Positions 1,309 to 32,851 of a stretch of 39,805 nucleotides of DNA are shown in pieces. A program made the translations under genes and the position numbers. Every line of letters starts with the position of its first letter. Within the stretch, counting starts at the first letter, position 1. Under the pieces are notes generated by a model. The model had not been told where the DNA came from and made no database searches. It was given only the letters and a program-made list of their open reading frames with translations. The stretch comes from a virus, in UHGV virus genome UHGV-0085625, one strand, 5' to 3'.

Positions 1309-1443
1309 AGCTGTGCGACGTCGCAACGTAGATAGGCCCCGGGATGCTCCTGAGGCCTATATTTTGATTGCGGCATAACTGCTGCTGTGCTATAATGCTG
1401 ATGTTACCGCCCCTATACTGGGAACAGAGAGGGGGTGTACAAC

Positions 1444-4679: not shown

Positions 4680-4859
4680 AATTATTCCTCCTTATTGTTG
4701 CGACGTCGCACATTTTTGGGTATAAAAAATACACCTGTACAGGTGTAAGGAGGTATGGTACAATATGGGTGTTGAGATCATATTGTATTTGGCCTCCGTG
4801 GCCTGTACAGAATTTATCTAAAAGCCGTTCCTGTTGGCGCAGGGGCGGTTTTTGCGTTA

Positions 4860-7212: not shown

Positions 7213-7239
7213 ATAGAAAAGTTCGGAAAGGAGAAAAAT

Positions 7240-8703: not shown

Positions 8704-8914
8704 CGTGATTATGGTCAGGAAGCCCAAGGGCATGAAAATCAACCGGGATGTACACGGGGATGCAGTGATAAAGATCAACTCAGAAGCGGCGGATACCCTG
8801 GAGCGGCTCCTCCGTGAAGCGCGGGGAAGCCTGTCAGTAAAGGAACTGGCATCCAGCATGATTAAATATGCGTCCAATGACACAATCATTAAGATTGAGG
8901 AGGATATGGAATGA
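8696..8914 (+). CDS. Hypothetical early protein.
   Basis: ORF overlapping its neighbours, typical of operon packing. Confidence 0.45.
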   Translation: MPNVIMVRKPKGMKINRDVHGDAVIKINSEAADTLERLLREARGSLSVKELASSMIKYASNDTIIKIEEDME

Positions 8915-9999: not shown

Positions 10000-10512
10000 A
10001 TGAATATACAGATTGACTCAAGGGAAAAAGCGAGGGCAATCCGAGTGATTGTAGAGGAATTTGACCGCCGGGGCGTGGATCATTTCGTATCAAAGCTGTA
10101 TGTGGGGGATTATATGAATTATGATAATCCCCGTCTGATTATAGACAGGAAACAGAACCTGACAGAGCTGTGCAGCAATGTGTGCCAGGGACACAGCCGG
10201 TTTCGGAATGAAATACTGCGGGCACAGGAGCATGGAATACAAATGATAATCCTGTGTGAACATGGGAAAGGGATTGAACAGCTGGAGGATGTGATATGGT
10301 GGGATAATCCACGCCGGCATAAGCGGTTTGTAGATCCAGAGACAGGCCAGTGGACAGAGCGTGAGACAAAAGCAATCACAGGGGACAAGCTGTATAAGAT
10401 ATTGCGCACATTCCAGGAAAAGTATGGATGCCTTTTTCTGTTCTGCGATAAGAAGGATACGGGAAAACGGATCATTGAGCTTTTGGGCGGTGATAGATGT
10501 GGATTGCAGTGA
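10000..10512 (+). CDS. ERCC4-domain (XPF/Mus81-like) nuclease.
   Basis: VGDY....IIDRK motif, the GDY...ERK signature of ERCC4 nucleases. Confidence 0.55.
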   Translation: MNIQIDSREKARAIRVIVEEFDRRGVDHFVSKLYVGDYMNYDNPRLIIDRKQNLTELCSNVCQGHSRFRNEILRAQEHGIQMIILCEHGKGIEQLEDVIWWDNPRRHKRFVDPETGQWTERETKAITGDKLYKILRTFQEKYGCLFLFCDKKDTGKRIIELLGGDRCGLQ

Positions 10513-11032
10513 GATTAAGAATACATACAGTATGCGCGATATCGTGGAGCGTTATGGGTTCCATCCGAACCGTGCCGGCTTTATCAGCTGCCCATTCCAC
10601 CAGGGGGACAGAACCCCGTCCTTGAAGGTGTATGAAAAAGACTACCACTGCCATGCCTGCGGGGCAAACGGGGATATTTTTACGTTTGTTCAGGAAATAG
10701 AGGGCGTTTCATTCAAAGAAGCATTCCTGAGCCTGGGAGGCACATACCGGCCCTGCAGCCGGATTGCATCCCAGAGGCGGAGGGAACAGATAAAAAGGGA
10801 ACGGGAAGAGCAGCGTGAGGCGGAGCGGGAAAGAACCGCCTGGAAATGGAGCCGTCTGGGCGAAGTCTGCCGGACCCTCCGGATGCTGGACAGGCTGATC
10901 CCTGGTATGGAGCCGTATTCGGAGGTCTGGGAGGCAGCAGTCAGCCTGAGGGAGAGGAACCGCTATTATTACGAGATACTGGCATTTGGAACGAAACAGG
11001 AACAGGAGGAAATGAGAAACAGGGATGGATGA
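10487..11032 (+). CDS. CHC2 zinc-finger (primase N-terminal-like) protein.
   Basis: IVERYGF...CPFHQGDRTPSLKV...YHCHACGANGD matches the DnaG-type zf-CHC2 pattern. The start is uncertain (GTG 10487 or ATG 10535). Confidence 0.55.
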   Translation, partial: AVIDVDCSEIKNTYSMRDIVERYGFHPNRAGFISCPFHQGDRTPSLKVYEKDYHCHACGANGDIFTFVQEIEGVSFKEAFLSLGGTYRPCSRIASQRRREQIKREREEQREAERERTAWKWSRLGEVCRTLRMLDRLIPGMEPYSEVWEAAVSLRERNRYYYEILAFGTKQEQEEMRNRDG

Positions 11033-15823: not shown

Positions 15824-16054
15824 ATGCCGGGGCCAGTATATTATGACCTGTACGATTGTGGGAAGCTTGTGGGACGGTACAGCGGCATTGAGTTGCAAAA
15901 GAGATTTGGTTGGAAGTGCAGGCCACAGGTCGATAAGTACAGTGATATGGGGATCCTGTACCAGAAGAGGTACCTGATTGTCCGGGTAGAAACAGAGATG
16001 TGGGCGGCTGAGTGGGATGAGGCCAGACAGAGGATTTTGAGGGCGAGGAGGTGA
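15824..16054 (+). CDS. Hypothetical protein.
   Basis: ORF. Confidence 0.4.
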   Translation: MPGPVYYDLYDCGKLVGRYSGIELQKRFGWKCRPQVDKYSDMGILYQKRYLIVRVETEMWAAEWDEARQRILRARR

Positions 16055-16485
16055 TACCGTTGGACAAGCAGATTTTGGAGCAGTACATAGATGCCTGCGA
16101 GCTGATTAAGGACACCAAGGAGGAGATCGGGAAGTTGCGTAAGCGCCGCAGGCAGATACAGAAGGATAGTGTCAAAGGGTCGGCACAGGAGTTTCCCTAC
16201 ACGTTGCAGACCTACCATCTGGAGGGACTTGGGTATGCTACCGTTAAAGATCCGGATGAGTTGGACCGTATGGAGGAGCTGTTGGCGGAGCGGATCCGAA
16301 ATGCAGAGAGAATCAAGCGCCAAGTGGAAACATGGCTCAATACAGTTTCACCCAGGATGCAGCGGATTATCCGGTACAGGGTGTTTGATGATATGACTTG
16401 GGAACAGGTTGCAATGCGAATGGGAAGAAGGGCAACAGGAGAGAGCGTTAAAAAAGAATTTCAGAGATTTTTAGAAGTGGCTTAA
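16051..16485 (+). CDS. Late-gene transcriptional regulator (sigma-70 region-4-like, ArpU/RinA-type).
   Basis: C-terminal HTH RIIRYRVFDDMTWEQVAMRMG resembling sigma region 4. Sits immediately upstream of the packaging genes. Confidence 0.5.
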   Translation: MIPLDKQILEQYIDACELIKDTKEEIGKLRKRRRQIQKDSVKGSAQEFPYTLQTYHLEGLGYATVKDPDELDRMEELLAERIRNAERIKRQVETWLNTVSPRMQRIIRYRVFDDMTWEQVAMRMGRRATGESVKKEFQRFLEVA

Positions 16486-16661
16486 AATTTGTCCCGTTTG
16501 TCCTGAATGTCCCACTTCAAAATGTTATAGTGTACCATGAAGCCAAAGGCATACAGCCGGCGGCTTTCATACTTACCGAAATGTCGGCCGCCAGGTGTTA
16601 CAGCCGGGTGGTCGGTTCGTCTGGCTCTGGTTCCATCCCAGGGCTGGACGCCCCCTTCTCC

Positions 16662-16734
16662 GGATCTTTAGCTCAGTTGGTAGAGCAGGTGGCTGTTAAT
16701 CACCGTGTCCCAGGTTCGATTCCTGGAGGATCCG
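16662..16734 (+). tRNA. tRNA-Asn (anticodon GTT).
   Basis: Hand-folded cloverleaf. Acceptor GGATCTT/AGGATCC, D-arm GCTC-AGTTGGTA-GAGC, anticodon loop CTGTTAA, T-arm CCAGG-TTCGATT-CCTGG. 73 nt, CCA not encoded. Confidence 0.9.
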
Positions 16735-16837
16735 TTGGTTTTTCTTTTGCATGATTTTTCTCCTTTGGAGAGGCTCCTGCTTCAGCGGGGGCTTTTCTTT
16801 TTATCAACATATTGTGGATAATGTGGGGATAAGTACA

Positions 16838-16918
16838 AGATATTGAAATGGAGGTGGCTTCGGCTGCCTCTTTTTCTATACCAAAAACAAACACGAACGA
16901 GAGGTGGCCTTAGCTGCC
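16838..16918 (+). terminator. Two tandem rho-independent terminators (UUCG-loop hairpins) before the packaging operon.
   Basis: GAGGTGGC-TTCG-GCTGCCTC + TTTTT at 16838..16865. AGGTGGC-CTTA-GCTGCCT + TTTTTT at 16891..16918. Confidence 0.55.
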
Positions 16919-16957
16919 TTTTTTGATTTCAGAAATACAGTCAGATAGGAAGGTGAG

Positions 16958-17446
16958 GTGATGGCAAACAATGGTAACTTAAGACGTTTAAGCCCGAGCG
17001 AAGCTCGAGAATATGGACGCAGAGGAGGAAAAGCATCCGGCGAATCACGGCGTAGGAAGGCCGACTTTCGGAAGATATTGAATGCCCTTCTCACGGCTGA
17101 AATAGACAATCCAGAATGGACGCCGCTGCTGGAGGCATTAGGACTGGACAGCACCTTGGAATCAGCCGTCAACGCAGCCATTATCCGGGAGGCTCTGGCG
17201 GGAGATGTAAAAGCTTATATTGCTATCCGCGACACCTTAGGACAGACCACAAAGTCAGAAGCGGACTTGGAGGAGCAGAAGATACGAACGGCAGCAGCCA
17301 AGGCAAAGACTGGACAGGATGTTGAGGAAGAACCGGAAGACGATGGATTCCTTCAGGCATTTAATGATGCTGCCGATGAAGACTGGCCTGATTTTACAGA
17401 AGAAGCGGAGAACGCAGACGATGAAGAGGAAACGACCGATATTTAA
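16958..17446 (+). CDS. terS: Terminase small subunit.
   Basis: Basic N-terminus, acidic C-terminus, and position immediately upstream of terL, which it overlaps. Confidence 0.5.
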   Translation: MMANNGNLRRLSPSEAREYGRRGGKASGESRRRKADFRKILNALLTAEIDNPEWTPLLEALGLDSTLESAVNAAIIREALAGDVKAYIAIRDTLGQTTKSEADLEEQKIRTAAAKAKTGQDVEEEPEDDGFLQAFNDAADEDWPDFTEEAENADDEEETTDI

Positions 17447-18722
17447 ATTTCAGAAATTCTCCCGTAAGCAGCGCCAGGTATTTACCTGGTGGGCTGATTC
17501 AAGTCCGGTAAAGGACGCGGAAGGGATTATAGCAGACGGAGCTATCCGATCCGGAAAGACTGTAAGCATGTCATTGTCTTATGTAATGTGGGCTATGGAA
17601 CGGTTTGACGGAGAAAACTTCATCATGGCCGGAAAGACCATCAGCTCTTTTAAGCGTAATGTATTGCAGAATCTGAAGCTTATGCTTACCAGTCGGGGAT
17701 ATAAGTGGATTTACCATATCTCTGGAGATCTTCCCAACATGCTGGAAGTTACCAGGAAAGGTAAGACAAATTATTTTTTCATATTCGGTGGAAAAGATGA
17801 AGGATCCCAGGATCTGGTTCAAGGTATTACGGCAGCAGGTGCCTTCTTTGATGAGGTGGCATTGATGCCGGAATCATTTGTGAACCAGGCAACAGGACGT
17901 CTTTCGGTGGAAGGCTCTAAGATGTGGTTTAACTGCAATCCAGCGGGCCCTGTGCACTGGTTCAAAGTAAATTGGATTGACAAGCGCAGAGATAAAAAGC
18001 TTCTTTATCTGCATTTTACAATGGATGATAACCTGTCTTTGTCTGAGAAGACTAAGGCCAGATACCGCAGTATGTATGTCGGCGTTTTCTACCTGCGGTA
18101 TATCAAGGGGCTATGGAAAGCCGCTGAGGGCCTGATTTATACCATGTTTACAGATGATAATCTGTACACGGACGATCAACGCCCGGTGGCGCTGAAAAGC
18201 ACAGCGGTTCGGGGTATTGCAGTGGACTATGGCACCACGAACCCCTGTGTATTTTTGGATATCTGGGACGATGGACAGACATTGTGGGTTGATCGGGAAT
18301 ATCGTTGGGACAGCCGATCAGAAGAGGCCAGGCGCAGCCCTAACCCACAGAGAACAGACTCCCAGTATGCAGATGATATGGCAGAGTTCATGGGGAACAG
18401 GCCAGAGGAACAGTGCGAGATCATTGTGGATCCCTCTGCCGCGTCTTTTATAGCCGAGCTGCAGGGGCGTGGCTATTATGTGAAGCTGGCAGATAACGAG
18501 GTAATAGATGGCATTCGGATCGTATCCACTCTTCTGGCTAAGCGTAGCATCAGGATCAACCGTAAATGCAGGGGGCTGACTGGGGAAATGCAGTCTTATG
18601 TGTGGGATGATAAGGCGGCAGAACGCGGAGAGGAAAAGCCGGTGAAACAGCAGGACCATGGGCCGGACGCCCTACGGTATTACTGTAAGACAAAACTACC
18701 AAAATGGAGGATAGCATCATGA
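17424..18722 (+). CDS. terL: Terminase large subunit (PBSX/XtmB-like).
   Basis: Walker A GAIRSGKT. C-terminal nuclease-like region. 433 aa from ATG 17424. Confidence 0.9.
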   Translation, partial: KRKRPIFKFQKFSRKQRQVFTWWADSSPVKDAEGIIADGAIRSGKTVSMSLSYVMWAMERFDGENFIMAGKTISSFKRNVLQNLKLMLTSRGYKWIYHISGDLPNMLEVTRKGKTNYFFIFGGKDEGSQDLVQGITAAGAFFDEVALMPESFVNQATGRLSVEGSKMWFNCNPAGPVHWFKVNWIDKRRDKKLLYLHFTMDDNLSLSEKTKARYRSMYVGVFYLRYIKGLWKAAEGLIYTMFTDDNLYTDDQRPVALKSTAVRGIAVDYGTTNPCVFLDIWDDGQTLWVDREYRWDSRSEEARRSPNPQRTDSQYADDMAEFMGNRPEEQCEIIVDPSAASFIAELQGRGYYVKLADNEVIDGIRIVSTLLAKRSIRINRKCRGLTGEMQSYVWDDKAAERGEEKPVKQQDHGPDALRYYCKTKLPKWRIAS

Positions 18723-18963: not shown

Positions 18964-20415
18964 ATGTCCAAGAGAAGAAACACCCGCCGTACACGGGCAG
19001 ACACAACACAGGCATCCACAGTTACGATGGATGCCTTTTCTAATCCTGCGGCCCGGATTGGATTCGGTACCATGGATCTTTTGCAGGCGACAGAATATCC
19101 CCTGACCCGTATGACCCAGAACTACCAGCTCCTAACCAGTCTGTACCGGGATAACTGGATTGTTCAGAACATCGTAGCTACAATCCCCAATGATATGATC
19201 CGAAAATGGTATGAGATCAGATCGGGTATCGCTCCGGAATATATCGACCAGATGGCCCGCTTAGAACGGACCACCCAGCTGCGAAAGAAATTGCTGACAG
19301 GCTTGTGCTGGGGGAGGCTGTATGGTGGTGCAGTTGGAGTGATTCTTATCAGGGGACAAAATGATATGTCCCAGCCTCTGGATTTGGACAGCATAATGCC
19401 CGGGAGCTTCCTGGGATTGCAGATTCTGGACCGGTGGAGTGGTGTATATCCGGAAAGTGATGTGGTAACAGATCCGTCCGATCCTGATTTTGGACTGCCG
19501 GATTATTATATTATCCGGGATGAGACTACAGGCCAGACGGCTGTGCGTGTGCATCACAGCAGGGTGATCCGGTTCATTGGGCGGGAGCTGCCGTGGCTGG
19601 AACAGGTGGCTGAACAGTATTGGGGAGAGTCGGAGCTGGAGGCGATTTACAGCGAGGTTGTCAAGCGGGACAATGTATCCGGTAATATTGCAGCGCTGAC
19701 TTTCCGGGCAAATGTCAACTATCTCGAAGCGGATGGACTGGATCAGCTGCTGGGGACGGCAAATACAGAGATGCAGCGCAGGTTCTGGAACCTGATGCAG
19801 GCCCAGGCAATCATGGAAAGCAACTTCGGAACCCGCATCATCAACAAGGGCGACGCCATGCACAATGTCCAGTATACGTTTACCGGCCTTGCTGATGTGT
19901 ATGACAGAGTGATGATGGATGTGGCAGGTGCAGCCAGAACACCGGTCACGAAGCTCTTCGGGCGCTCGCCTGCTGGGATGAATGCTACTGGCGAATCTGA
20001 TATGCGTAATTATTATGATTACATAGACGGCCTGCGGGAAACAGATTTCCGGGCTATCATTGAGAGACTACTGCCGATTATGGCATTATCGGCCTGGGGA
20101 CAGATACCGGATGATTTGGAGATTGATTTTCCACCCATGCAGACCCCAGATGCCAAGGAAACTGCGGAGATTGCAGAACGCAAAACGAATGCAATTCTGG
20201 CGGTATACCAAAATGATCTGATCGATTCTGCTACTGCACAGCAGGAACTCCAGACACTGACCGAAGAAACCGGAATGTTTGGAAAAATCACGGACGAAAG
20301 CATCGAGGCGGGCAGAGGTCAGACTTACAGCAGTTCCAGAGCGATGCAGGATCCTCTGATGGGCTTAGAGCTTCCACGGGAACCAGCATCAGGCAATGAG
20401 GGGGATTTTGAATGA
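18964..20415 (+). CDS. Portal protein (Mu gp29/DUF935-like).
   Basis: 483 aa between terminase and MuF. The call rests mainly on this conserved gene order. Confidence 0.75.
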   Translation: MSKRRNTRRTRADTTQASTVTMDAFSNPAARIGFGTMDLLQATEYPLTRMTQNYQLLTSLYRDNWIVQNIVATIPNDMIRKWYEIRSGIAPEYIDQMARLERTTQLRKKLLTGLCWGRLYGGAVGVILIRGQNDMSQPLDLDSIMPGSFLGLQILDRWSGVYPESDVVTDPSDPDFGLPDYYIIRDETTGQTAVRVHHSRVIRFIGRELPWLEQVAEQYWGESELEAIYSEVVKRDNVSGNIAALTFRANVNYLEADGLDQLLGTANTEMQRRFWNLMQAQAIMESNFGTRIINKGDAMHNVQYTFTGLADVYDRVMMDVAGAARTPVTKLFGRSPAGMNATGESDMRNYYDYIDGLRETDFRAIIERLLPIMALSAWGQIPDDLEIDFPPMQTPDAKETAEIAERKTNAILAVYQNDLIDSATAQQELQTLTEETGMFGKITDESIEAGRGQTYSSSRAMQDPLMGLELPREPASGNEGDFE

Positions 20416-21911
20416 CACGGCAGATGAAGATCCTTCTACCAGATCGGGCAGATGTAACGGCTTATATGCGTATGCTGTTTTTGCGGACAGAGCAGGAAAT
20501 CATAAATGTGATCAACCGTAAGCGGTCGGTGGGCCATGTAGATTATGCTGAGGTAGCTGCTCTGGAACGTGTCCAGAAGATTCTGCAAAGTATGATAGAT
20601 CAGTCCTGGGCCTATGTCCCGACGATGATAGAAAAGATATTCTACCATTCGGATAAGGATGCTTCGGGTTACTCGAATGCCCGGAAGATGACTGAGACAT
20701 TCTCAGCGCCCCGGATTGCTATTATACAGCAGTTGACTGATAATCTTCTGGGTGAGCTTACAGAGGCCTCAGAAACAGCTTATGAGAGCGTACGGAAGGT
20801 CTACACGATTGCGAGACTGGAGGCTGATCCCTTCCGGGAAACAGCACTTAAAAAGGTATTGCGCAAGGAGGCAGCAGGAACTCCATGGATCAACAGCAGT
20901 CAGGCCATGGTACAGGAGATGCAGAATAAGGGGATTACCGCTTTTGTGGATAAGGCGGGGCGAAAGTGGTCTTTGCAGAGCTATGGGAACATGGCTGTCC
21001 GCACAACAGCCCGTCAGGCCCAGGTGGCAGCCCTTCTTACGGCTGACGATTACGATCTGTGGCAGATCGTGAAGGTTGGAAGCACCTGCAAGGTATGCGC
21101 GGCTCTGGAGGGAAGAGTGTACAGTAAAAGCGGAATGAACCCGGACTATCCTCCGTTGTCTCTGGCTTTCGGGAAGGTAGATCCGGATGGGGCGGATGAT
21201 CTGACGAATACCTACCTGAATATTCATCCTAACTGCCTTCATTCATTGGTTAAATATACAACGATAGGAAAGACAGAAAAGCAGATCCAGAAGGATAAGG
21301 ATTTTTCCAATCCTGAAAAGAATCCTATTGACCGGGATCCCCGGACGAAGAAGCAGATCAAGGCTTATCGGGAGAAGGAGCGGAACCGGCAGAGGCTTTT
21401 GCGGGATATGAGGCAGCATAAGGAATATAGGGCTGTTTTAGGGGAGGAAGTACCGAAAGATTTTGCAAAGTTCCAGAAAATGAAGTATACTGAAGGTGAA
21501 AAAATTGAGGTACTTAGAAAAAAAGTTGAAAATCTGGAAAAGTCCCGCAAATTCAAAGAAAAATTAAAAGATGGATCTATAAACATAGCTGTAAGAAATG
21601 TGAAACAGCAGGAACATATTCAGGGAACTAAAAAGTGGAGACAAAGGGTACGTTCTGATTTGGAAACCAAAGGAACAGCACCAGATATGTTCTATAAAAG
21701 TGTGGATGTTCAGAAGCTGGTGGATGAATATTCTGGGACAGGAGAATTTGAATTCCGTAAGAATCAGCAGTACCCTATTGAATACATCAGCGCAAAAGAA
21801 CCGATTGGAAGGTACTTTAACCTTGGAAAAGGAAGATACGAAGAAACAAAGCGTTTTGCAATTCGTTATTCCAGCAAGGGCGTACACCTGCATCCGGTAA
21901 AGGAGGTTTGA
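20412..21911 (+). CDS. Head morphogenesis protein (MuF/SPP1 gp7 family) with an AT-rich about 200-aa C-terminal extension.
   Basis: MuF core AFVDKAGRKWSLQSYGNMAVRTTARQA...CKVCAALEGRVY. The C-terminal 200 aa are Lys-rich and markedly AT-richer than the core. Confidence 0.8.
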   Translation: MTRQMKILLPDRADVTAYMRMLFLRTEQEIINVINRKRSVGHVDYAEVAALERVQKILQSMIDQSWAYVPTMIEKIFYHSDKDASGYSNARKMTETFSAPRIAIIQQLTDNLLGELTEASETAYESVRKVYTIARLEADPFRETALKKVLRKEAAGTPWINSSQAMVQEMQNKGITAFVDKAGRKWSLQSYGNMAVRTTARQAQVAALLTADDYDLWQIVKVGSTCKVCAALEGRVYSKSGMNPDYPPLSLAFGKVDPDGADDLTNTYLNIHPNCLHSLVKYTTIGKTEKQIQKDKDFSNPEKNPIDRDPRTKKQIKAYREKERNRQRLLRDMRQHKEYRAVLGEEVPKDFAKFQKMKYTEGEKIEVLRKKVENLEKSRKFKEKLKDGSINIAVRNVKQQEHIQGTKKWRQRVRSDLETKGTAPDMFYKSVDVQKLVDEYSGTGEFEFRKNQQYPIEYISAKEPIGRYFNLGKGRYEETKRFAIRYSSKGVHLHPVKEV

Positions 21912-22147: not shown

Positions 22148-22294
22148 TACAGCGGAGAGAGCTATAGTGTATACTTTGCTACAGAGTTAAGATAAGCAAA
22201 AATAATTGAGGAGAAATACCACCAGTCAGAAATGGCCGGTGGTTTTTTGTACCCATTTTTAGCGTTGCGACGTCGCAACAGGAAGGAGTACACA

Positions 22295-22471
22295 ATGAGT
22301 AGATTTCTAAACTGGCTGAAACGGTTCTTTTGCAGGGCGAATCCTGAATGTGAGCACCTGTATAGAAAGCACTGGTGCCGCCGCTATGGCCCTTATGGCG
22401 GGTATGTGAGGCGGTGTACGAAGTGCGGAAAGGAAACAGAGAGATGCTTGCATATTACGGATACACCATAA
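22295..22471 (+). CDS. Small zinc-ribbon protein.
   Basis: GGAAGGAG RBS. CxxC motifs. Preceded by the 16-bp GACGTC palindrome. Confidence 0.4.
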   Translation: MSRFLNWLKRFFCRANPECEHLYRKHWCRRYGPYGGYVRRCTKCGKETERCLHITDTP

Positions 22472-23667
22472 GCCCCAATCAGATTGAAACTGGAGAGGGC
22501 TTTTTGATTTGCAGAAATGTTCCGATTGCCCGGACTGGAGACCAGGAGTATCTGGGGCGGGAGCTGGGACTTTCTGGTGCTGATGCAGAAAAGGTGGTAA
22601 TCGTTCATCGGCCACCTGAGGAAGTATTTTCTGAGGCTGCTCTGGCAAGTTTTGAAGGGAAACCGACAACGGACGATCATCCGCCGGAGCTTCTTACCCC
22701 GGATACTGTGAGCATGTACGAAAAGGGTCATGCTCAGAATATCAGGAAAGGGACTGACGAATGGGAAGGTTATGTAATTGCAGACCTGCATATCCATGAC
22801 CGAAGCCTGATTGATGCGATCCAGCAGGGGAAGAGGGAGATCAGCTGCGGGTATGAGTGCGAATATGTTTCGGACGGTTCCGGAGCATTCTGCCAAAAGA
22901 ATATAAGAGGGAATCACATTGCGGTCGTAAACCGGGGAAGAGCCGGGAAGCGGGCCGCAATTTTAGATTCAGATACATTAAAAAAAGAACAGGCTGAGAA
23001 GCCGGAAAGGAAAGCTATGAAAAAGAATGGGTTATTTTTCAAACTCTTCGGGCAGGCCGTAAAGGATAAAAGCCCGGAGGAAATTGAACAGCTGGCTATG
23101 GATGCGGCAGATGCATTTGAGGAAGAGGACTCTTCCGGCGGCGGTGATGGAACAGAGCCAGGCAAAAAGGAAAAAGAGGGTACCGCTCAGACGGTACAGG
23201 ATTCCGCTTTTTTAACGGCTCTGGATCAGAAAATCGACAGATTATTAAACCTGTTTGATGAAGCTGCAAAGGAAAAACCAGAAGAGGATCCGATGGATGC
23301 AGCTATCCGGAAGCTGGAGGGGAAAGAGGAAGAAAAAGAGGAAAAGAAGGAAGCCAAAGTAGTTCCGGCAGAGGGAAGCGGTGAACAGGCCCCTACAGTG
23401 GACAAGGCTTTGGCCGCTGCTCTTTTAAAGGCTGCAAGGCCTGCTGTAGCTGCGATCAAAGATGAAAAGGAGCGCAAGGCGGTATCGGATGCCCTGATCG
23501 CCTGCGTAACAGGATCCGGAGCTGACGGGGATATTGCAAAGCTTATGAAGGCAGCCCAGCATAATGCACAGAATGCAGCGGATCATAAGCCTGATGCAGA
23601 TTTAAGCAGGCTGCAGAGCGCTTATGACAAAATGAATCCGCATAAGAATGGAGGTACACAGGAATGA
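22444..23667 (+). CDS. Prohead protease/scaffold (Mu gpI/DUF2213-like) with a KE-rich scaffold domain.
   Basis: N-terminal domain GHAQNIRKG...IAVVNRGRAG. C-terminal charged low-complexity scaffold. Lies between MuF and the capsid gene. Confidence 0.55.
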   Translation: MLAYYGYTISPNQIETGEGFLICRNVPIARTGDQEYLGRELGLSGADAEKVVIVHRPPEEVFSEAALASFEGKPTTDDHPPELLTPDTVSMYEKGHAQNIRKGTDEWEGYVIADLHIHDRSLIDAIQQGKREISCGYECEYVSDGSGAFCQKNIRGNHIAVVNRGRAGKRAAILDSDTLKKEQAEKPERKAMKKNGLFFKLFGQAVKDKSPEEIEQLAMDAADAFEEEDSSGGGDGTEPGKKEKEGTAQTVQDSAFLTALDQKIDRLLNLFDEAAKEKPEEDPMDAAIRKLEGKEEEKEEKKEAKVVPAEGSGEQAPTVDKALAAALLKAARPAVAAIKDEKERKAVSDALIACVTGSGADGDIAKLMKAAQHNAQNAADHKPDADLSRLQSAYDKMNPHKNGGTQE

Positions 23668-24184: not shown

Positions 24185-25234
24185 ATGGTATTTCAGAATG
24201 TAGGTACAATGGATTTAGGCATGCAGGTAGCACGGGGCGCTGGTGGGAGTGCCACTGGCGGAAACGCTGCTCGCATGACAATGGATGCCGCCGGGATTGC
24301 TTCCGGACAGGCATTTTTAACATCAGAGCTGGAAAAAAGAGATACGTTAGTGAGAACACCGCTGACCAGCGTTACATACGCCCGTGATATTCCTATGAGA
24401 GTGGGAGGAGGCTGGGCTGAATTTGTCAGCGCTATGCAGGTAGGATACGGCACTGCCGGAGGCTCTGGCGATAATCTGCATCACGCCGGAGGTGCGAACG
24501 GTATCCCCATGATCCAGGCGAATTTTGAGAAGGGGATGTATAAGTCCCACATGGTAGCCATGGGAACCCGCGTCATGTGGATTGATATGCAGAGAGGCAA
24601 TATGACAGGCCGCAATCTTGACAGCCTGCTTAGGGATGGCCTGCGCCTGACATATGATAAACATATGGAGGAAAACACATATGCAGGATTCAAGCGCTAC
24701 GGAACCACCGGCCTGTTAAACAATGCGGATGTTACGATCACCAGTGCAGCTGCTACAGGATCTTCCAGCGGCACTACATTTAAGAGTAAGACGCCGGATC
24801 AGATTCTGGATGATATCAATACGGCCATCCTGGTAGCCTGGGCGGCGGCAGAATATGACCGGGATGCAATCCCGAACCATATCATTATGCCGTATGAACA
24901 GTTTAATTATCTGGCAACCACCAGAGTGAGCGATCTGGCAGAAAAGACGATCCTTGCTTTCCTTCTGGAAAACAATGTGGCAAAGCAGAACGGAGTGGAT
25001 CTGTATATTGGCGCCACATCCTGGTGTAAGGGTGCAGGAGCCAGTAAAAAGGACCGTATGGCAGTGTACTGCAATAAAGAGCGTTATCTCGCTATGGATG
25101 AACTTGCACCGTTAACCCGTGCCATGACAGGGCCGAACACAGAGCAGTTCTGCTATGACACGGCATATGCGGCCAATGTGTCTGAGGTAGAGGTATTCTA
25201 CGATCAGACTGTATTGTATGTAGATGGAATTTAA
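24185..25234 (+). CDS. Major capsid protein (Mu gpT/DUF2184-like).
   Basis: 349 aa at the expected position for the capsid gene. Strong RBS AAGGAGGAT. Confidence 0.7.
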   Translation: MVFQNVGTMDLGMQVARGAGGSATGGNAARMTMDAAGIASGQAFLTSELEKRDTLVRTPLTSVTYARDIPMRVGGGWAEFVSAMQVGYGTAGGSGDNLHHAGGANGIPMIQANFEKGMYKSHMVAMGTRVMWIDMQRGNMTGRNLDSLLRDGLRLTYDKHMEENTYAGFKRYGTTGLLNNADVTITSAAATGSSSGTTFKSKTPDQILDDINTAILVAWAAAEYDRDAIPNHIIMPYEQFNYLATTRVSDLAEKTILAFLLENNVAKQNGVDLYIGATSWCKGAGASKKDRMAVYCNKERYLAMDELAPLTRAMTGPNTEQFCYDTAYAANVSEVEVFYDQTVLYVDGI

Positions 25235-26979: not shown

Positions 26980-27428
26980 CTTTTACATTGGATCATATTG
27001 TAAACAGCCTTGCAGGCGTCCTTACTTCCAGATACCCGACGTATCCGGTTTATGACAGTCCCAATCCCCAGGGAACAGAACCACCCTGCTTTTTTATTTT
27101 TTTCATGCCCTCTACCATAGAGGGGCAGGTGGGGGAGCGGTTCCTGCGTGATCTGGGTGTGGACATTGTGTTTGTTCAGGAACGTAACATTGTTAATGCC
27201 AACGCAGAGATTCTCCAGATTGCAGATTATCTGGATTCGGTACTGGAATTGTTCCCTTATTCAGATGGAGGCAGTGAAACAGCATGGATACGGACCTATG
27301 AGAGGCAGTGGCAGACGGAAGACGGGGAGCTGCATTATCAATTTCACATCAGGGAACGGGTGCGGCTGCCGGAGGAAGGAAATCCAATGCAGGAAATGGA
27401 GGAACGTTATGGCATCAAAGGCAAATAA
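26976..27428 (+). CDS. Tail completion/neck protein.
   Basis: Position only. Confidence 0.35.
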   Translation: MTFTLDHIVNSLAGVLTSRYPTYPVYDSPNPQGTEPPCFFIFFMPSTIEGQVGERFLRDLGVDIVFVQERNIVNANAEILQIADYLDSVLELFPYSDGGSETAWIRTYERQWQTEDGELHYQFHIRERVRLPEEGNPMQEMEERYGIKGK

Positions 27429-27621
27429 GAGTACAGAGTCTAAGTCTACTGTTGCGACGCCGCACAAAAGAGACGGACAAAAATACTCCACCAGTAAACT
27501 GTTGAAAAGCAAGCATTTGGCCGGGTATCAGCGGGATTTTGCCAGGGTGATCCTGACAGAACCAGAATATACTATCGAAGAGGCAAGAAAGCTTTTAGAT
27601 GAGAGATTAAAGGACAAATAA
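27409..27621 (+). CDS. Small Lys-rich protein.
   Basis: ORF overlapping the upstream gene. Contains the imperfect palindrome at 27451..27465. Followed by a bidirectional terminator. Confidence 0.35.
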   Translation: MASKANKSTESKSTVATPHKRDGQKYSTSKLLKSKHLAGYQRDFARVILTEPEYTIEEARKLLDERLKDK

Positions 27622-27651
27622 AAAGCCGCCCATTTAGGACGGCCTTTAGGA

Positions 27652-28083
27652 TTATGCCCGGAGCTTTGCAAGGAGGGCTTCCTGGAGAGTTTGAGAAAAG
27701 TTGATGCCCTGCTCCAAGGCGGCTTTGTTTAACCATGCCGGAATGGACAGGGTCTTTTTTACAGATTTCTCAAAGTGCTCTTTTGCATAAGCTTCCACAT
27801 CGACAGACACCATGTTTATAAAGTAAGAAGGAATGGGAGAATCTTCATAAAATTCTTTTAGCTGTGCTTCTACAGAGAGGGTATTCATTTCGGAAGCAGT
27901 TGGGATTGGTTCATTTTCTTTTTTGCAGTCATAAAGATAGCCTGCCAGACAGTCTACAGCCATTTCCATAGCATCTTCTAAAGTATCTCCACAGGTAGCA
28001 AGCCAGTTAAGATCGGGGAAGAAAATAGAGTAGCCGTTTTCTTCTTTGCAGAAACAAGCTGGATACACAGATAACATATACAT
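27652..28083 (-). CDS. hicB: HicB antitoxin (RNase-H-like N-domain plus C-terminal RHH/HTH).
   Basis: YSIFFPDLNWLATCGDTLEDAMEMAVDCLAGYL motif of HicB. Directly downstream of hicA. Confidence 0.85.
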   Translation of the reverse strand: MYMLSVYPACFCKEENGYSIFFPDLNWLATCGDTLEDAMEMAVDCLAGYLYDCKKENEPIPTASEMNTLSVEAQLKEFYEDSPIPSYFINMVSVDVEAYAKEHFEKSVKKTLSIPAWLNKAALEQGINFSQTLQEALLAKLRA

Positions 28084-28107
28084 ACCTCCTGTTTTAGGGT
28101 GGCAGGG

Positions 28108-28296
28108 CTATTTCAGCCCCGCCTGTTTTAAGATGGAATTTTCAGTGCCTTTTGGCAATTCTTTTGAATGAAAAGGAATCGTAACTTTTCCTGATTTTGT
28201 CGGGTGTGTATAATGCCGGTGGGATCCGGTCTGAGATTTAAACACCCAACCATCGGAGAGGATGATTCTTTCCATTTCGATTGGCTTTTTGGGCAT
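28108..28296 (-). CDS. hicA: HicA mRNA-interferase toxin.
   Basis: 62 aa with GSHRHYTHP...GKVTIPFH...GT..SILKQAG, the YcfA/HicA signature. Confidence 0.8.
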   Translation of the reverse strand: MPKKPIEMERIILSDGWVFKSQTGSHRHYTHPTKSGKVTIPFHSKELPKGTENSILKQAGLK

Positions 28297-30811: not shown

Positions 30812-32851
30812 TTGATGGGGAAAATAAATGAAACACTTACATTGACAGATCAGTTTTCTTCCTCTTTCCATACATTCATCAATCTGGGGGAGCAGGCTCT
30901 TTCAAGCCTGATTTCTGTCAACAATGGCATAACAGATCTGGCCTCACAGTCTGCCCGTGAATCGGAGAAAACCAGACAGTCCATTGATGGAGTAACACAG
31001 AGTATCAATCAGATGTCCGATGCACTCCAGTATATTTCTGTACAGGGAATGAATGAGATCAAACAGACGATCCAGCAGATTGATGTAAATCAGCGGAATC
31101 ATACAGAAGAAACCAAACGGACAGGCAGAGCAGCAGGTGATCTTCTTCGGACATTCCGCCAGATCGCAGTAGCAACTGGTGCGGTAAGTTTGGTAAGATC
31201 CTTCTTAGGGGTTGCTGATCAGCAGACACAGATTACAGCCCGCCTGAATTTAATGAATGATGGGCTTCAGTCCACAGCCGAATTGCAGGATATGATCTAT
31301 GTGTCGGCGCAGCGTACCCGGTCTGCATATGATGCTACGGCACAGGTGGTAGCTGGCCTGGGACAGCGTGCCGGTAAGGCATTTTCCTCCAGTGTAGAGA
31401 TTGTCCAGTTTGCGGAAAACTTAAATAAGCAGTTTAAGATTGCAGGTGCATCGCAGCAGGAGATTTCCTCAGCATCCCTGCAGCTGACCCAGGCAATGGG
31501 TGCTGGTGTGCTCCGCGGTGAGGAATTGAATGCAATCTTTGAGGCAGCGCCCAATATCATCCAAACGATTGCGGATTACCTGGGAGAGGACATAGGTAAA
31601 ATCCGGGATATGGCATCAGAGGGACAGATTACGGCAGAAGTAGTAAAAAATGCTATGCTGAAAGCGACGGATGAGATAGATGCACAATTTCAAGAGATGC
31701 CTATGACACTGGCAGAAGCTTTTACCATGGGAAAAAACGCAATTCAAAAAAACTTGCAGGATAGCTTTTCTGGATGGAGTGAATTCTTGAATTCAGACGA
31801 AGGTCAGCAGGCTATTATGCAGGCAATTACCTTGTTCACAGTTCTTGCACAGATAGGAGTTGGGACGTTATCTGCGATTGGTCAGGGCGCTTTGTGGGTA
31901 TCCAATAATCTGGATTTTATTTTACCTATATTGGCGGCAATAGGGGTGGCGCTTGTCATATTGAATGGACAAGCGATTTTAGCAGGCATGGCCAATGTAG
32001 GAAGTGCATTGGCATCAGCTGCAGCCTGGGCGGCAGCAAACTGGCAGATATTACTGCTGATAGCTGTTTTTTCAGCAGCCCTGATTGCCGCCCAACAATT
32101 TGGATTCGGAATGCAGGAAGTCGGGAGCTTTGTTGGACAAATTTTAGGATTGCTGTATGCAGTCGGCTACAATGTCTTTGCATCTCTCTGGAATGTGATT
32201 GCTGCATTTGCGGAGTTCTTTGCGAATGTTTGGAACGATCCTCTGGGAGCGACCGCCCGGTTATTTTTTGATGTATTTGATACAATTTTGGGAATTGTCG
32301 AAACAACAGCCGGAGCCATTGATGCACTTTTGGGAACGGATATGGCCAGTGTTGTATCCGGATTCCGCGGCAAGATGTCCGGCTGGGTTGATGATACATT
32401 CGGAGAAAATGCAGTCCAGATCAAACGTATGTCAGAACTCGATGTGGTTGCGACGTCGCAACAATGGGGGGATGTTGGTGCAAGTCTGGGGGCTAAGCTG
32501 GACAACATGGATCTCAGCCTGGAGTCATTGACGGATAATCTGGGAGGCCTGAATGGTTTTGACGCATCATCTATCCCAACTGTGGACAACCTTGGAGACA
32601 TTGGCAAGGTTGGGAAAGTCGGCAAGATCGAAGATGATGTAAAGCTTTCCGATGAAGATATCAAGATCTACAGGGATTTGGCAGAACGCCGCTATATGAA
32701 TAACATAGAGCTTCAGACTATGGCGCCGCAGATCCATGTGTCCATTCCGGAAAGCGCTGCCAAGAATCTGACTGCCAGTGATATTGCGGATAAATTGAAA
32801 GCGATCCTGATCGAACAGGCTGCTGCCGGAACAGCAGTATCGCACGGATAG
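30812..32851 (+). CDS. Tail tape measure protein.
   Basis: 679 aa. Coiled-coil N-terminus, central hydrophobic Gly/Ala-rich helices, and position. Confidence 0.9.
   Translation: MMGKINETLTLTDQFSSSFHTFINLGEQALSSLISVNNGITDLASQSARESEKTRQSIDGVTQSINQMSDALQYISVQGMNEIKQTIQQIDVNQRNHTEETKRTGRAAGDLLRTFRQIAVATGAVSLVRSFLGVADQQTQITARLNLMNDGLQSTAELQDMIYVSAQRTRSAYDATAQVVAGLGQRAGKAFSSSVEIVQFAENLNKQFKIAGASQQEISSASLQLTQAMGAGVLRGEELNAIFEAAPNIIQTIADYLGEDIGKIRDMASEGQITAEVVKNAMLKATDEIDAQFQEMPMTLAEAFTMGKNAIQKNLQDSFSGWSEFLNSDEGQQAIMQAITLFTVLAQIGVGTLSAIGQGALWVSNNLDFILPILAAIGVALVILNGQAILAGMANVGSALASAAAWAAANWQILLLIAVFSAALIAAQQFGFGMQEVGSFVGQILGLLYAVGYNVFASLWNVIAAFAEFFANVWNDPLGATARLFFDVFDTILGIVETTAGAIDALLGTDMASVVSGFRGKMSGWVDDTFGENAVQIKRMSELDVVATSQQWGDVGASLGAKLDNMDLSLESLTDNLGGLNGFDASSIPTVDNLGDIGKVGKVGKIEDDVKLSDEDIKIYRDLAERRYMNNIELQTMAPQIHVSIPESAAKNLTASDIADKLKAILIEQAAAGTAVSHG

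What the first reader, a model, noticed from the sequence alone, without database searches (positions are those of the whole stretch)
22264..22279. GACGTC-centred palindrome related to GTTGCGACGTCGCAAC recurs five times across the genome
Perfect 16-bp copies lie at 22264..22279, before a small zinc-ribbon gene and the head protease operon, and at 32447..32462, inside the tape-measure coding sequence. A third perfect 16-bp copy, the variant GTTGCGACGCCGCAAC (GACGCC for GACGTC), lies at 27450..27465. The two 15-bp partials, GTGCGACGTCGCAAC at 1313..1327 (5 nt after a small ORF) and GTTGCGACGTCGCAC at 4697..4711 (in the int 5'UTR, 18 nt from its start codon), also share the GCGACGTCGC core. A 16-mer this long recurring by chance in 40 kb is very unlikely. 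It could be a binding site for a phage regulator such as the late activator or an Xis-like factor, a conserved RNA hairpin (6-bp stem, ACGU loop), or a methylation or anti-restriction motif.
Basis: seen in the sequence. Interest (0 to 1): 0.55.

Follow-up and report, generated by a model that had tools for sequence, protein, structure and literature searches.

The report
Shared palindrome marking phage module boundaries
A 16-base perfect palindrome seen several times in this gut phage is shared by well over a hundred related Lachnospiraceae phages, where it sits where gene modules begin or end and marks the points at which those phages have swapped modules.

Summary
Perfect GTTGCGACGTCGCAAC lies at 22264 and 32447. 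The 15-nt forms at 1313 and 4697 are correct. The "third perfect copy" is actually GTTGCGACGCCGCAC (27451-27465), and it lies inside a small gene.

The motif is neither chance nor a host REP element, and it is not the CI/Cro operator. IMG/VR holds more than 115 stretches with the exact 16-mer (capped), against 11 for a control palindrome with identical dinucleotide content. Bacterial genome hits are mostly Lachnospiraceae/Clostridia, 1-3 stretches per genome, usually next to phage or mobile-element genes.

The usual setting is [terminator]-[T-rich GTACCC box]-palindrome-AGRAAGGAG ribosome-binding site-ATG. This holds before many unrelated genes, including the head protease/Zn-ribbon genes and integrases. 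It also occurs between a stop codon and a terminator, and in frame (VATSQ) in variable protein linkers.

Flanks on the two sides recombine independently, with the break exactly at the palindrome. Variants keep the dyad through compensatory changes, and the central ACGT changes only by transitions.

Best reading (about 40%): a portable hairpin-plus-ribosome-binding-site boundary element that also serves as the crossover point for module exchange. The closest known analogue is the PeSL cassette of T4-like phages. No trans-acting factor was identified.

The parts
1313..1327 (+). Site 1: 15-nt form GTGCGACGTCGCAAC (one T missing from the left arm). It lies between the stop of small ORF 1105-1308 and a terminator-like hairpin, ahead of the CHAP endolysin gene (1647-2615).
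   Evidence: The same arrangement (small gene, palindrome, hairpin, ribosome-binding site, lysin) recurs in at least 9 other phage loci (flank clusters 1/2) and in L157.
1332..1365 (+). Terminator-like hairpin ATAGGCC...GGCCTAT followed by ATTTT, 4 nt downstream of site 1.
   Evidence: Sequence; RNA fold.
4697..4711 (-). Site 2: reads GTGCGACGTCGCAAC on the minus (integrase sense) strand, 17 nt upstream of the integrase ATG (4679). It is followed by the ribosome-binding site TAAGGAGG (4686-4693).
   Evidence: A palindrome 19-44 nt upstream of integrases only 26-31% identical to this one was seen in L109, L178, L160 and L174.
4712..4747 (-). Upstream partner of site 2 on the minus strand: hairpin TACACCTGTACAGGTGTA (4747-4730), then the box TTTTTTATACCCAAAAAT (4729-4712).
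22219..22263 (+). Upstream partner of site 3: terminator-like hairpin CCACCAG...CCGGTGG (22219-22242), then the box TTTTTTGTACCCATTTTTAG (22243-22262).
   Evidence: The box gives 100% 20-nt matches in Agathobacter, Coprococcus and Lachnospiraceae phages, where it precedes late genes without the palindrome.
22264..22279 (+). Site 3: perfect GTTGCGACGTCGCAAC. It directly abuts the ribosome-binding site AGGAAGGAG (22280-22288), 15 nt before the ATG (22295) of the 58-aa Zn-ribbon ORF. That ORF overlaps the start of the head maturation protease gene (22444-23667).
   Evidence: Conserved at this position in relatives. All but one of 33 informative unique upstream sequences of the Zn-ribbon gene family carry the core.
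27451..27465 (+). Site 4: degenerate copy GTTGCGACGCCGCAC. It is in frame (V-A-T-P-H) at codons 15-19 of the small gene 27409-27621, the first gene after the head module.
   Evidence: Relatives carry GTTGCGACGTCGCAAC (L244, VATSQ), GACATC (L256), GATGTC (L236) and GTTGCGACGTCGCAC (L238, L240) at the same place.
32447..32462 (+). Site 5: perfect copy in frame (VATSQQ) in a variable six-residue segment of the tape measure protein (30812-32851).
   Evidence: Homologues align without an indel but read GATAAE, YGTSQS or SATAKQ. The 90%-identical relative L357 reads GTTGCAACATCGCAAC: same peptide, palindrome lost.

Best explanation
The five sites are local copies of a dispersed, hairpin-forming perfect palindrome (core TTGCGACGTCGCAA, usually GTTGCGACGTCGCAAC). 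It is shared by a large group of temperate phages and prophages of gut Lachnospiraceae. It is a module-boundary element that sits where one expression unit ends and the next begins. The typical order is [intrinsic terminator]-[T-rich GTACCC box]-palindrome-strong ribosome-binding site (AGRAAGGAG)-start codon. Shown here: the motif is real, enriched and specific to mobile elements. It takes this position in front of many unrelated genes. Its dyad is kept through compensatory changes. The DNA on its two sides has been reassorted among phages with the break exactly at the palindrome. Inferred: in non-coding copies it acts in cis on the mRNA as a 6-bp, 4-nt-loop hairpin abutting the ribosome-binding site. 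That hairpin would give the downstream module a protected or insulated 5' end, whatever lies upstream. Also inferred: because the same 16-25 nt sits at many boundaries in phages that meet in the same hosts, it serves as the short-homology or copy-choice crossover point for exchange of modules, accessory cassettes and protein domains. The phage carries an Erf-type annealing protein (8911-9567). In-frame copies (frame VATSQ, as in the tape measure and the small tail gene) are the same sequence tolerated in variable peptide segments, either as joints or as decaying copies. No trans-acting binding factor has been identified.
For: Not chance within the window.

Lineage-wide: more than 115 IMG/VR stretches (capped) against 11 for a palindrome with identical dinucleotide content.

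Host range: about 70 of 120 genome hits are Lachnospiraceae/Clostridia, 1-3 stretches per genome, with a single stretch listed from a 2.2-Mb contig. These hits lie next to a CI-like repressor, integrase, PcfJ, Abi, a DnaC-like protein, toxin-antitoxin genes, terminase and portal genes.

Anatomy: 47 distinct upstream contexts have the palindrome followed at 0-8 nt by a ribosome-binding site, with a start codon 12-19 nt from its end. 19 of these have a T-run within 25 nt upstream.

Positional conservation: sites 1-4 recur in relatives.

Mosaic junctions: 504 half-flanks fall into 359 clusters. Upstream types {3, 5, 16, 50} combine with downstream genes {0, 6}. Pairwise identities include 35% upstream with 97% downstream, 91/11, 92/30 and 49/100. 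The same pattern occurs inside genes (L012, L040, L061, L074). A YafQ toxin-antitoxin cassette is flanked by two perfect copies.

Dyad preserved: 6 of 11 distinct two-mismatch variants are perfectly compensated palindromes, against about 2% expected. 4 of 6 stem pairs covary, and 0 of 500 shuffles reach the observed score. Compensated variants coexist with canonical copies in the same locus (L024, L217), which argues against a changed protein specificity.

Sense strand: non-coding single-arm variants are wobble-compatible on the sense strand. Examples are L278 (U5.G12) and L253 (G1.U16) beside L247 (A1-U16).
Against: There is no transcript data. The RNA-level role is inferred from position only.

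The exact sequence, including the self-complementary ACGT centre, is conserved far more than a generic hairpin needs. This points to sequence-specific recognition or to identity by descent.

Site 1 lies upstream of its terminator, not in a 5' UTR.

Coding copies are common (67 of 205 low-GC instances in frame VATSQ). At least one arose in place without an indel (tape measure), which an mRNA-leader function does not explain.

Compensatory changes also occur in coding copies. They could come from quasi-palindrome template-switch mutation rather than from selection.

The G.U evidence rests on about four non-coding cases, and two of three coding single-arm variants are disruptive.

No closely related pair differing by presence or absence of the element (an empty site) was found.
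Confidence: 0.4

Rival explanations
1. Operator-type DNA site. A dimeric DNA-binding protein, from the phage or the Lachnospiraceae host, binds the duplex palindrome. It then controls or blocks transcription entering module-leading genes (head, tail, lysis, integrase), as a small regulon.
For: Perfect dyad symmetry runs through the centre. The flanks show a weak symmetric Y-[16-mer]-R preference. The exact sequence is conserved across hundreds of contexts. There are a few sites per genome at operon starts, loosely like the Ogr sites of P2 (own knowledge). The half-site TTGCGA resembles the ComA box TTGCGG-N4-CCGCAA of LuxR/sigma-r4-type HTH proteins (own knowledge). The phage has a sigma-r4/Alt-like protein at 16051-16485.
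Against: The palindrome abuts the ribosome-binding site and often a terminator T-run, so there is no room for a downstream promoter. It is not the CI/Cro operator, which is AAGTTCGGAAAT in four copies at 7097-7232. No copy lies upstream of terS. Symmetric double substitutions coexist with canonical copies in one genome, which a single binding protein would not favour. No protein shared by all carriers was found. The Zn-ribbon gene is absent between the palindrome and the protease gene in L247, L253 and L255. The early multi-domain protein family that carries linker copies is absent from this window.
Confidence: 0.2
2. Dedicated recombination site. The palindrome, as duplex or extruded hairpin, is recognised or cut by a phage or host enzyme. 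It is the programmed crossover or integration site for modules and accessory cassettes.
For: Breakpoints fall exactly at the palindrome, in intergenic and in-frame contexts. A YafQ toxin-antitoxin cassette is flanked by two perfect copies, both followed by CGC, as expected after integration of a circle carrying one site. HicAB, XRE and small-gene cassettes lie next to copies, often beside the integrase. The predominance of one reading frame among coding copies would keep swaps in frame. The window encodes Erf, an ERCC4-type nuclease and a T5orf172 (GIY-YIG-like) protein.
Against: The site is too short and too symmetric for known tyrosine or serine recombinase core sites (own knowledge). Five unoriented sites in one genome would be scrambled by an active site-specific enzyme. 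No enzyme was found to co-occur. No empty-site polymorphism was found. Four of the seven close HicB relatives have no copy within 2.5 kb. The tape measure copy arose without any insertion.
Confidence: 0.15
3. Genome-wide DNA signal comparable to parS, Chi or uptake sequences. A motif needed in a few copies per genome for some DNA transaction (replication, organisation, packaging or protection), placed wherever the sequence can be tolerated.
For: The pattern of copies near terminators plus one preferred, benign reading frame in poorly conserved protein segments is what uptake sequences show (own knowledge). The tape measure copy was created in place by substitutions. Copies sit in acidic linkers of an early multi-domain protein with an HTH-like N-terminal domain, reminiscent of the lambda ori inside gene O. 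L046 has eight CGACGTCG-centred palindromes in 450 bp next to a DnaB-like helicase gene.
Against: No ParB, initiator or other cognate protein was found in the window. All sites here lie in the late and integrase regions, not the replication module. The tape measure copy is lost by synonymous changes in a 90%-identical relative. The tight juxtaposition to ribosome-binding sites is left unexplained.
Confidence: 0.1
4. Methylation or restriction-related motif centred on GACGTC.
For: GACGTC occurs 5 times in the window against 7.7 expected, and 4 of those lie inside the motif. All centre variants are transitions, with CpG-to-TpG/CpA changes the most frequent, as expected if the CpG is methylated.
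Against: The conserved unit is 14-16 bp, far longer than Type II or methyltransferase sites. No methyltransferase gene was found in the window. The position at gene boundaries and the flank mosaicism are not explained.
Confidence: 0.04
5. Chance recurrence, or a host REP-like chromosomal repeat picked up by the phage.
For: None beyond the fact that scattered unrelated taxa also have single chance hits. One Lachnospiraceae hit lies in the housekeeping gene aroA.
Against: (0 of 100 shuffles). (control palindrome gives 11 hits against more than 115). (1-3 stretches per genome; one stretch listed from a 2.2-Mb contig). (mobile-element contexts).
Confidence: 0.01

Closest known systems
PeSL (promoter-early stem-loop) mobile regulatory cassettes of T4-like phages (Arbiol et al. 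2010, PMC2839356; Comeau et al. 2014, PMC4122927)
   Same: A short conserved regulatory motif containing a stem-loop, repeated at the boundaries of variable genes. The flanking genes differ between related phages, and the motif is the proposed crossover point for modular shuffling.
   Different: The sequence, host group (gut Firmicutes temperate phages) and composition all differ. Here the unit is a 16-bp perfect palindrome fused to a ribosome-binding site, often after a terminator and a GTACCC box. No promoter was demonstrated. Copies also occur in frame inside proteins, at apparent domain joints. Minicircle intermediates were not examined.
Linker or boundary sequences postulated for lambdoid phage modules (Susskind and Botstein modular theory; boundary sequences in HK620/lambdoid comparisons; own knowledge)
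   Same: Short shared sequences at module junctions that allow homologous exchange between otherwise unrelated neighbours.
   Different: In lambdoid phages such linkers are weak, heterogeneous and disputed. Here a single exact 16-mer recurs in hundreds of contexts.
5'-terminal stabiliser hairpins and ribosome-binding-site-proximal stem-loops of Firmicutes mRNAs (e.g. the aprE leader, ermC/SP82 stabilisers; own knowledge)
   Same: A short stable hairpin immediately 5' of a strong ribosome-binding site. In those cases it protects against 5'-to-3' decay.
   Different: Those hairpins have no shared sequence. Here the sequence itself is conserved, the 5' ends are unmapped, and some copies are coding or lie upstream of a terminator.
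parS/ParB-type sites and DNA uptake sequences
   Same: 16-bp palindrome (parS). A few dispersed copies, tolerated inside genes in a preferred frame and in poorly conserved peptide segments (uptake sequences).
   Different: No ParB or uptake machinery is involved. The sequence is unrelated to TGTTNCACGTGAAACA. The motif is strongly coupled to ribosome-binding sites and terminators.
REP/BIME elements with RAYT transposases
   Same: Palindromic and extragenic, often after genes.
   Different: REPs are imperfect, 20-40 nt, present in tens to hundreds of copies per host chromosome, and carry a conserved 5' tetranucleotide. This motif is perfect, 16 bp, rare in chromosomes and linked to mobile elements.

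Membership tests
PeSL-like mobile regulatory cassette / module-boundary motif | The same short motif is repeated at boundaries of variable genes in many related phages. | tested here: met
PeSL-like mobile regulatory cassette / module-boundary motif | Flanking DNA is reassorted between phages, with the motif as the junction. | tested here: met
   four-gamete patterns; identity drops from 91-100% to 11-35% at the palindrome; three unrelated upstream flanks joined to one downstream gene.
PeSL-like mobile regulatory cassette / module-boundary motif | Composite of a promoter plus a stem-loop or terminator. | tested here: inconclusive
   Terminator-like hairpins and a conserved T-rich GTACCC box accompany many copies. 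No sigma-70-type promoter fits between the terminator and the ribosome-binding site, and no transcription start data exist.
PeSL-like mobile regulatory cassette / module-boundary motif | Excised circular intermediates formed by recombination between motifs. | not testable with these tools
   Needs PCR or long reads on infected cells. A toxin-antitoxin cassette flanked by two copies is compatible with this.
Conserved RNA hairpin | Base pairs are maintained by compensatory changes. | tested here: met
   (4 of 6 pairs covary; 0 of 500 shuffles reach the score). Caveat: a DNA hairpin, or template-switch correction of quasi-palindromes, would give the same result.
Conserved RNA hairpin | The loop is free to vary, and G.U pairs are tolerated on the transcribed strand only. 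| tested here: inconclusive
   The centre shows only transitions of ACGT. About 4 non-coding cases are wobble-compatible on the sense strand, and 2 of 3 coding cases are not.
Known Rfam RNA family | Match to a curated covariance model. | tested here: not met
   Only a tRNA passes in the window, and nothing relevant appears at sites 2 and 3 even at E<=1.
Intrinsic terminator | A GC-rich hairpin followed directly by a U-run. | tested here: not met
   The palindrome is followed by purine-rich ribosome-binding-site sequence or by coding sequence. Separate terminator-like hairpins lie beside it.
CI/Cro operator of this phage | Repeated sites in the cI-cro intergenic region. | tested here: not met
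   That region carries AAGTTCGGAAAT in four copies and no copy of the palindrome.
Host REP/BIME element | Tens to hundreds of copies per host chromosome, in intergenic positions. | tested here: not met
   1-3 stretches per Lachnospiraceae genome among those listed, and one stretch listed from a 2.2-Mb contig.
parS/ParB partition or KorB-type system | A cognate ParB-family protein is encoded, and the site matches the parS consensus. | tested here: not met
   No ParB-like domain was found in any ORF scanned. The sequence differs from TGTTNCACGTGAAACA (own knowledge).
Site-specific recombination site (integron attC, lox/dif/hix type) | Two recombinase-binding arms around a 6-8 bp (tyrosine) or 2 bp (serine) crossover region, 26-34 bp or longer, with a dedicated recombinase. 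| tested here: not met
   The unit is 14-16 bp and does not extend beyond that more than chance allows. No recombinase beyond the phage integrase was found. Biochemical recognition is not testable here.
Restriction-modification or methylation site | A 4-8 bp specific target with a cognate methyltransferase. | tested here: inconclusive
   The conserved unit is 14-16 bp and no methyltransferase gene is in the window. CpG-type transitions dominate the centre variants. Methylation itself is not testable here.

The most novel reading that the evidence does not exclude
The palindrome is a genuine recombination linker for a whole community of gut Lachnospiraceae phages. It would be a hairpin-forming site at which a phage or host activity (copy-choice at the hairpin, an annealing protein, or an unidentified nuclease) preferentially joins DNA. 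Through it, head, tail, lysis and lysogeny modules are swapped, toxin-antitoxin and defence cassettes are captured, and protein domains are exchanged in frame (always through the VATSQ reading). This would be a concrete molecular form of the linkers postulated in Botstein's modular theory.
Probability: 0.15. Interest if true: 0.85.

Novelty: new variant of a known kind. Interest (0 to 1): 0.6.

Why it matters
Mosaicism is the central fact of temperate-phage evolution, but defined crossover sequences have rarely been pinned down. Here one exact 16-mer marks the joints between modules, accessory cassettes and even protein domains across a large group of human-gut Lachnospiraceae phages. That makes the question directly testable through crosses, reporter mutants, and mapping of RNA ends and DNA breaks.

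It would also give a practical marker for module boundaries in gut virome annotation. It could serve as a natural portable hairpin-plus-ribosome-binding-site part for engineering phages of these hard-to-study hosts. If it is instead bound by a protein, it defines an unknown regulon shared by many gut prophages.

Tried and rejected
- **No close relative in GenBank phages.** The 22.8-kb late region gave no near match. A 32-nt query spanning the palindrome and ribosome-binding site found a single unannotated 5-kb record.
- **Literature.** No paper contains the 16-mer or the 14-mer. The 24 papers containing the 10-mer are unrelated. The Heliusvirales paper mentions no motif, palindrome or recombination.
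- **CI/Cro operator.** Rejected.
- **Longer palindrome.** The dyad does not extend beyond 16 bp more than chance allows.
- **Anti-ribosome-binding-site pairing.** The fold of site 3 pairs the GTACCC box with the ribosome-binding site. The pairing partners are not conserved in L237 or L278, so I did not adopt this.
- **Zn-ribbon protein as universal binder.** The palindrome precedes the protease gene directly in relatives that lack that ORF.
- **Early multi-domain protein whose linkers carry copies.** It is absent from the window and has no Pfam or functional PHROG assignment.
- **HicB operator idea.** Four of seven close HicB relatives lack any copy nearby, and site 4 lies downstream of hicB.
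- **Empty-site search.** Requiring both flanks conserved with the palindrome absent found nothing.
- **Tracing palindrome-flanked cassettes to other contexts.** Nothing found among the loci held.
- **Rfam.** No family matches.
- **Not run.** I did not run the protein homology, structure or metagenome searches, because none would have identified a binding partner with confidence.
Full report
**1. What is in the window**

The window is a roughly 40-kb temperate myovirus-type genome of a Firmicutes host, annotated.

- Lysogeny and early genes: integrase 3429-4679(-), DUF4041/T5orf172 gene 4860-6131(-), ImmA-like and CI-like genes 6174-7097(-), cro-like 7240-7440.
- Replication and recombination: Erf 8911-9567, ERCC4-type nuclease 10000-10512, primase/DUF927 helicase 10361-12866.
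- Regulation and packaging: sigma-r4/Alt-like regulator 16051-16485, terminase large subunit 17319-18722, portal 18964-20415.
- Head and tail: head maturation protease 22444-23667, major head protein 24185-25234, HicAB on the minus strand 27652-28296, sheath, tube, tape measure 30812-32851, baseplate genes.
- Lysis: holin 781-1011 and CHAP/choline-binding endolysin 1647-2615.

**2. The observation**

- Perfect GTTGCGACGTCGCAAC lies at 22264 and 32447.
- GTGCGACGTCGCAAC lies at 1313 and GTTGCGACGTCGCAC at 4697.
- The reported third perfect copy is wrong. The sequence is GTTGCGACGCCGCAC at 27451-27465.
- That copy is in frame (VATPH) near the start of a small gene, 27409-27621.
- None of 100 shuffles gave any match to the 16-mer at up to 2 mismatches.
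- The window has a normal number of perfect palindromes of at least 12 bp (11 against 8.6 expected), but four of them are this motif.

**3. It is a lineage-wide element, not a host repeat**

Most come from gut-metagenome contigs of 20-45 kb with 40-50% GC.
- A control palindrome with the same dinucleotide content and the same GACGTC centre (GCGTTGACGTCAACGC) gave 11 stretches.
- In one genome per bacterial species, about 70 of the 120 returned stretches are Lachnospiraceae or other Clostridia. The rest are scattered taxa at about the chance level for 596 Gb.
- Carriers show one to three stretches each, and a 2.2-Mb Lachnospiraceae contig contributed only one.
- The neighbouring genes are phage or mobile-element genes: terminase, portal, integrase, CI-like repressor, DnaC-like protein, PcfJ, Abi and toxin-antitoxin genes. 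One evident chance hit lies in aroA.
- The sequence is absent from the searchable literature and from Rfam.

**4. Where it sits**

Among 205 exact copies in low-GC loci, 83 are non-coding. Another 67 are read as VATSQ inside long ORFs, and the rest fall in the other two frames, where many of the ORFs look spurious.

*Non-coding copies.*
- In 47 distinct upstream contexts the palindrome is followed at 0-8 nt by a ribosome-binding site, most often AGGAAGGAG or AGAAAGGAG.
- A start codon lies 12-19 nt from the end of the palindrome.
- The downstream genes are unrelated to one another: Zn-ribbon ORF, head protease, integrases, XRE regulators and others.
- 19 of the 47 contexts have a T-run within 25 nt upstream.
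- Sites 2 and 3 of the window have exactly this layout: hairpin plus T-run, then a box TTTTTT(G/A)TACCCA(T/A)..., then the palindrome, ribosome-binding site and ATG.
- The box is a separate conserved motif. Agathobacter, Coprococcus and Lachnospiraceae phages in GenBank have terminator-box-ribosome-binding site before their portal and tape measure genes, with no palindrome. Some relatives of this phage have the same arrangement (L244, L245, L259).
- Site 1 is a second recurrent type: stop codon, palindrome, terminator, ribosome-binding site, endolysin.

*Positional conservation.*
- Site 3 is kept in relatives whose protease is only 55-60% identical. Their variants are GATGTC, GACATC, GATATC and ATTGCGACGCCGCAAT.
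- In 80 loci of the Zn-ribbon gene family there are 35 distinct upstream sequences, two of them cut off by contig ends. All but one of the other 33 carry the core, commonly as ATTGCGACGTCGCAAA.
- Site 4 is kept at the head-tail boundary in L236, L238, L240, L244 and L256. In L248 it appears as a non-coding terminator-box-palindrome-ribosome-binding site version.
- Integrases only 26-31% identical to this one have a copy 19-44 nt upstream of their start.

**5. Mosaic junctions**

- The 504 half-flanks of exact copies fall into 359 sequence clusters.
- Where clusters recur, they recombine freely across the palindrome. Four upstream types pair with the Zn-ribbon gene, and three of them also pair with a second, unrelated downstream gene.
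- Upstream/downstream identities for pairs of loci:

| Pair | Upstream | Downstream |
|---|---|---|
| L005 / L058 | 35% | 97% |
| L005 / L017 | 91% | 11% |
| L058 / L047 | 92% | 30% |
| L017 / L047 | 49% | 100% |

- Similarity ends at the first base outside the palindrome.
- The same pattern holds inside genes. Around VATSQQ, the N-terminal contexts NAVKKQPEES and EDLIEDETEC combine with the C-terminal contexts KEPTALPNGG and NAKQDSTTIR.
- These coding copies lie in acidic linkers of an early multi-domain protein family (phrog_15077, unknown function) that this window lacks.
- In L140 a YafQ toxin-antitoxin cassette with its own promoter-like sequence is bracketed by two perfect copies, each followed by CGC.
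- No closely related pair differing only by presence or absence of the element was found.

**6. How the sequence varies**

- In 456 kb of relatives not selected for the motif, all 15 TTGCG-N4-CGCAA sites have centres that are ACGT or a transition of it. Control arrangements occur 0-3 times.
- In 1.85 Mb of low-GC loci, 6 of 11 distinct two-mismatch variants are perfectly compensated palindromes, against about 2% expected.
- On the 26 distinct variants, 4 of 6 stem pairs show changes on both sides, and no shuffle of 500 reaches the observed covariation.
- Compensated variants sit beside canonical copies in the same locus (L024, L217). This speaks for intra-strand pairing, or a palindrome-restoring mutation process, rather than a changed protein specificity.
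- The few single-arm changes in non-coding copies are wobble-compatible on the sense strand: L278 (U.G), L253 (G.U) next to L247 (A-U), L163 and L224. In coding copies two of three are disruptive.
- The dyad does not extend beyond 16 bp. The outer G-C pair is dispensable, and the flanks show a Y-[16-mer]-R preference.

**7. The coding copies**

- The tape measure copy aligns without an indel to homologues that read GATAAE, YGTSQS, SATAKQ and similar in a variable six-residue segment. It was therefore made in place or by a short conversion patch.
- A 90%-identical relative keeps the peptide VATSQ but has lost the palindrome through two synonymous CpG-to-CpA changes. No purifying selection on the DNA is visible there.
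- The nearest relatives of the tape measure differ on the two sides of the site: 76-79% upstream against 57-58% downstream for L360, L372 and L399, but about 71% on both sides for L361. This hints at a nearby recombination boundary without placing it exactly.
- Site 4, by contrast, is old and retained.

**8. Interpretation**

The shown facts are:
- a mobile-element-specific, hairpin-capable palindrome;
- a fixed position at expression-unit boundaries;
- a preserved dyad;
- flank reassortment at the motif.

The most economical mechanism is a portable boundary cassette (hairpin plus strong ribosome-binding site, often with a terminator and box). It would act in cis on the mRNA leader, and its shared sequence would be the crossover point for module exchange. 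This is functionally like the PeSL cassettes of T4-like phages (PMC2839356, PMC4122927). I give this about 40%.

It leaves three things open: why the exact sequence is so strongly conserved, why site 1 lies before its terminator, and why coding copies arise de novo.

The rivals and my estimates are:

| Reading | Estimate |
|---|---|
| Duplex operator for an unknown dimeric protein | about 20% |
| Dedicated recombination or cassette-integration site | about 15% |
| parS-, Chi- or uptake-like genomic signal | about 10% |
| Methylation-related motif | about 4% |
| Chance or host repeat | about 1% |

The CI/Cro operator is excluded.

**9. Verdict**

The finding is real and more general than described, with one transcription error. 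It is a previously undescribed, widespread boundary palindrome of gut Lachnospiraceae phages. In kind it is closest to known mobile regulatory cassettes, so I rate it a new variant of a known kind. The mechanism is unresolved and can be settled by standard transcript-end mapping, compensatory-mutation reporters, binding assays and phage crosses.

Noticed in passing
window 1-99 and 39707-39805: The two ends of the window are a roughly 99-nt inverted repeat of each other, with one mismatch at position 56. They lie next to tail-fibre-like ORFs (38527-39573 on +, 44-355 on -). This could be an invertible fibre segment, or a contig broken inside an inverted repeat.
   Followed up: partly
window 22243-22262 (+) and 4712-4729 (-); L408 1494-1520; L410: The box TTTTTTGTACCCATTTTTAG is a conserved motif in its own right. 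It gives 100% 20-nt matches in Agathobacter, Coprococcus and Lachnospiraceae 'NatCom' (Heliusvirales) phages. In the one genome examined it follows a terminator-like hairpin and directly abuts the ribosome-binding site of the portal and tape measure genes, without the palindrome. It may be a late-promoter or processing element.
   Followed up: partly
window 16661-16735 and 16767-16922: A tRNA-Asn(GTT) lies between the sigma-r4/Alt-like regulator and the small terminase gene, so ORF 16530-16754 is probably not a gene. It is followed by three tandem terminator-like hairpins just upstream of terS.
   Followed up: no
window 7097-7232: Four copies of AAGTTCGGAAAT (one inverted) lie in the cI-cro intergenic region, around a perfect TTGACA-17-TATAAT promoter. 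These are the likely CI/Cro operators.
   Followed up: partly
window 27652-28296 (-): A HicA/HicB toxin-antitoxin moron with its own terminator (27621-27647) is inserted on the opposite strand between the first tail-module gene and the sheath gene.
   Followed up: partly
window 20412-21911: The minor capsid protein (Phage_min_cap2) carries a C-terminal Ntox50 toxin domain.
   Followed up: no
L046 1660-2090 (IMGVR_UViG_2795386125_000006): About eight different palindromes, all centred on CGACGTCG but with different self-complementary arms, lie within 450 bp. They sit inside an ORF just downstream of a DnaB-like helicase gene, and each is read as x-A-T-S-x. This looks like an origin-like array of binding sites or hairpins.
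   Followed up: partly
L140 5896-6567: A YafQ-type toxin-antitoxin cassette is bracketed by two perfect copies of the 16-mer, both followed by CGC. Two further variant copies lie in the same 8-kb stretch.
   Followed up: partly
window, whole: Many 6-bp palindromes are absent or strongly depleted: ACGCGT, AGTACT, CCTAGG, GCGCGC, GCTAGC, GTCGAC, TCGCGA and TCTAGA all occur 0 times against 6-11 expected. TCCGGA is 4-fold enriched (32 against 7.7). This suggests restriction avoidance and possibly another motif.
   Followed up: no
L003, L019, L023, L030, L040, L043, L074, L084, L121, L142 (ORFs containing the palindrome): This is a family of large early phage proteins (phrog_15077, no Pfam domain). 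The N-terminal domain is conserved and HTH-like (IGYxLKxIRD...FGxSKSxxSRF). The middle and C-terminal domains are highly variable and Cys-rich, and are joined by acidic linkers that carry one to three copies of the palindrome. One member has an RNA polymerase alpha CTD-like domain.
   Followed up: partly
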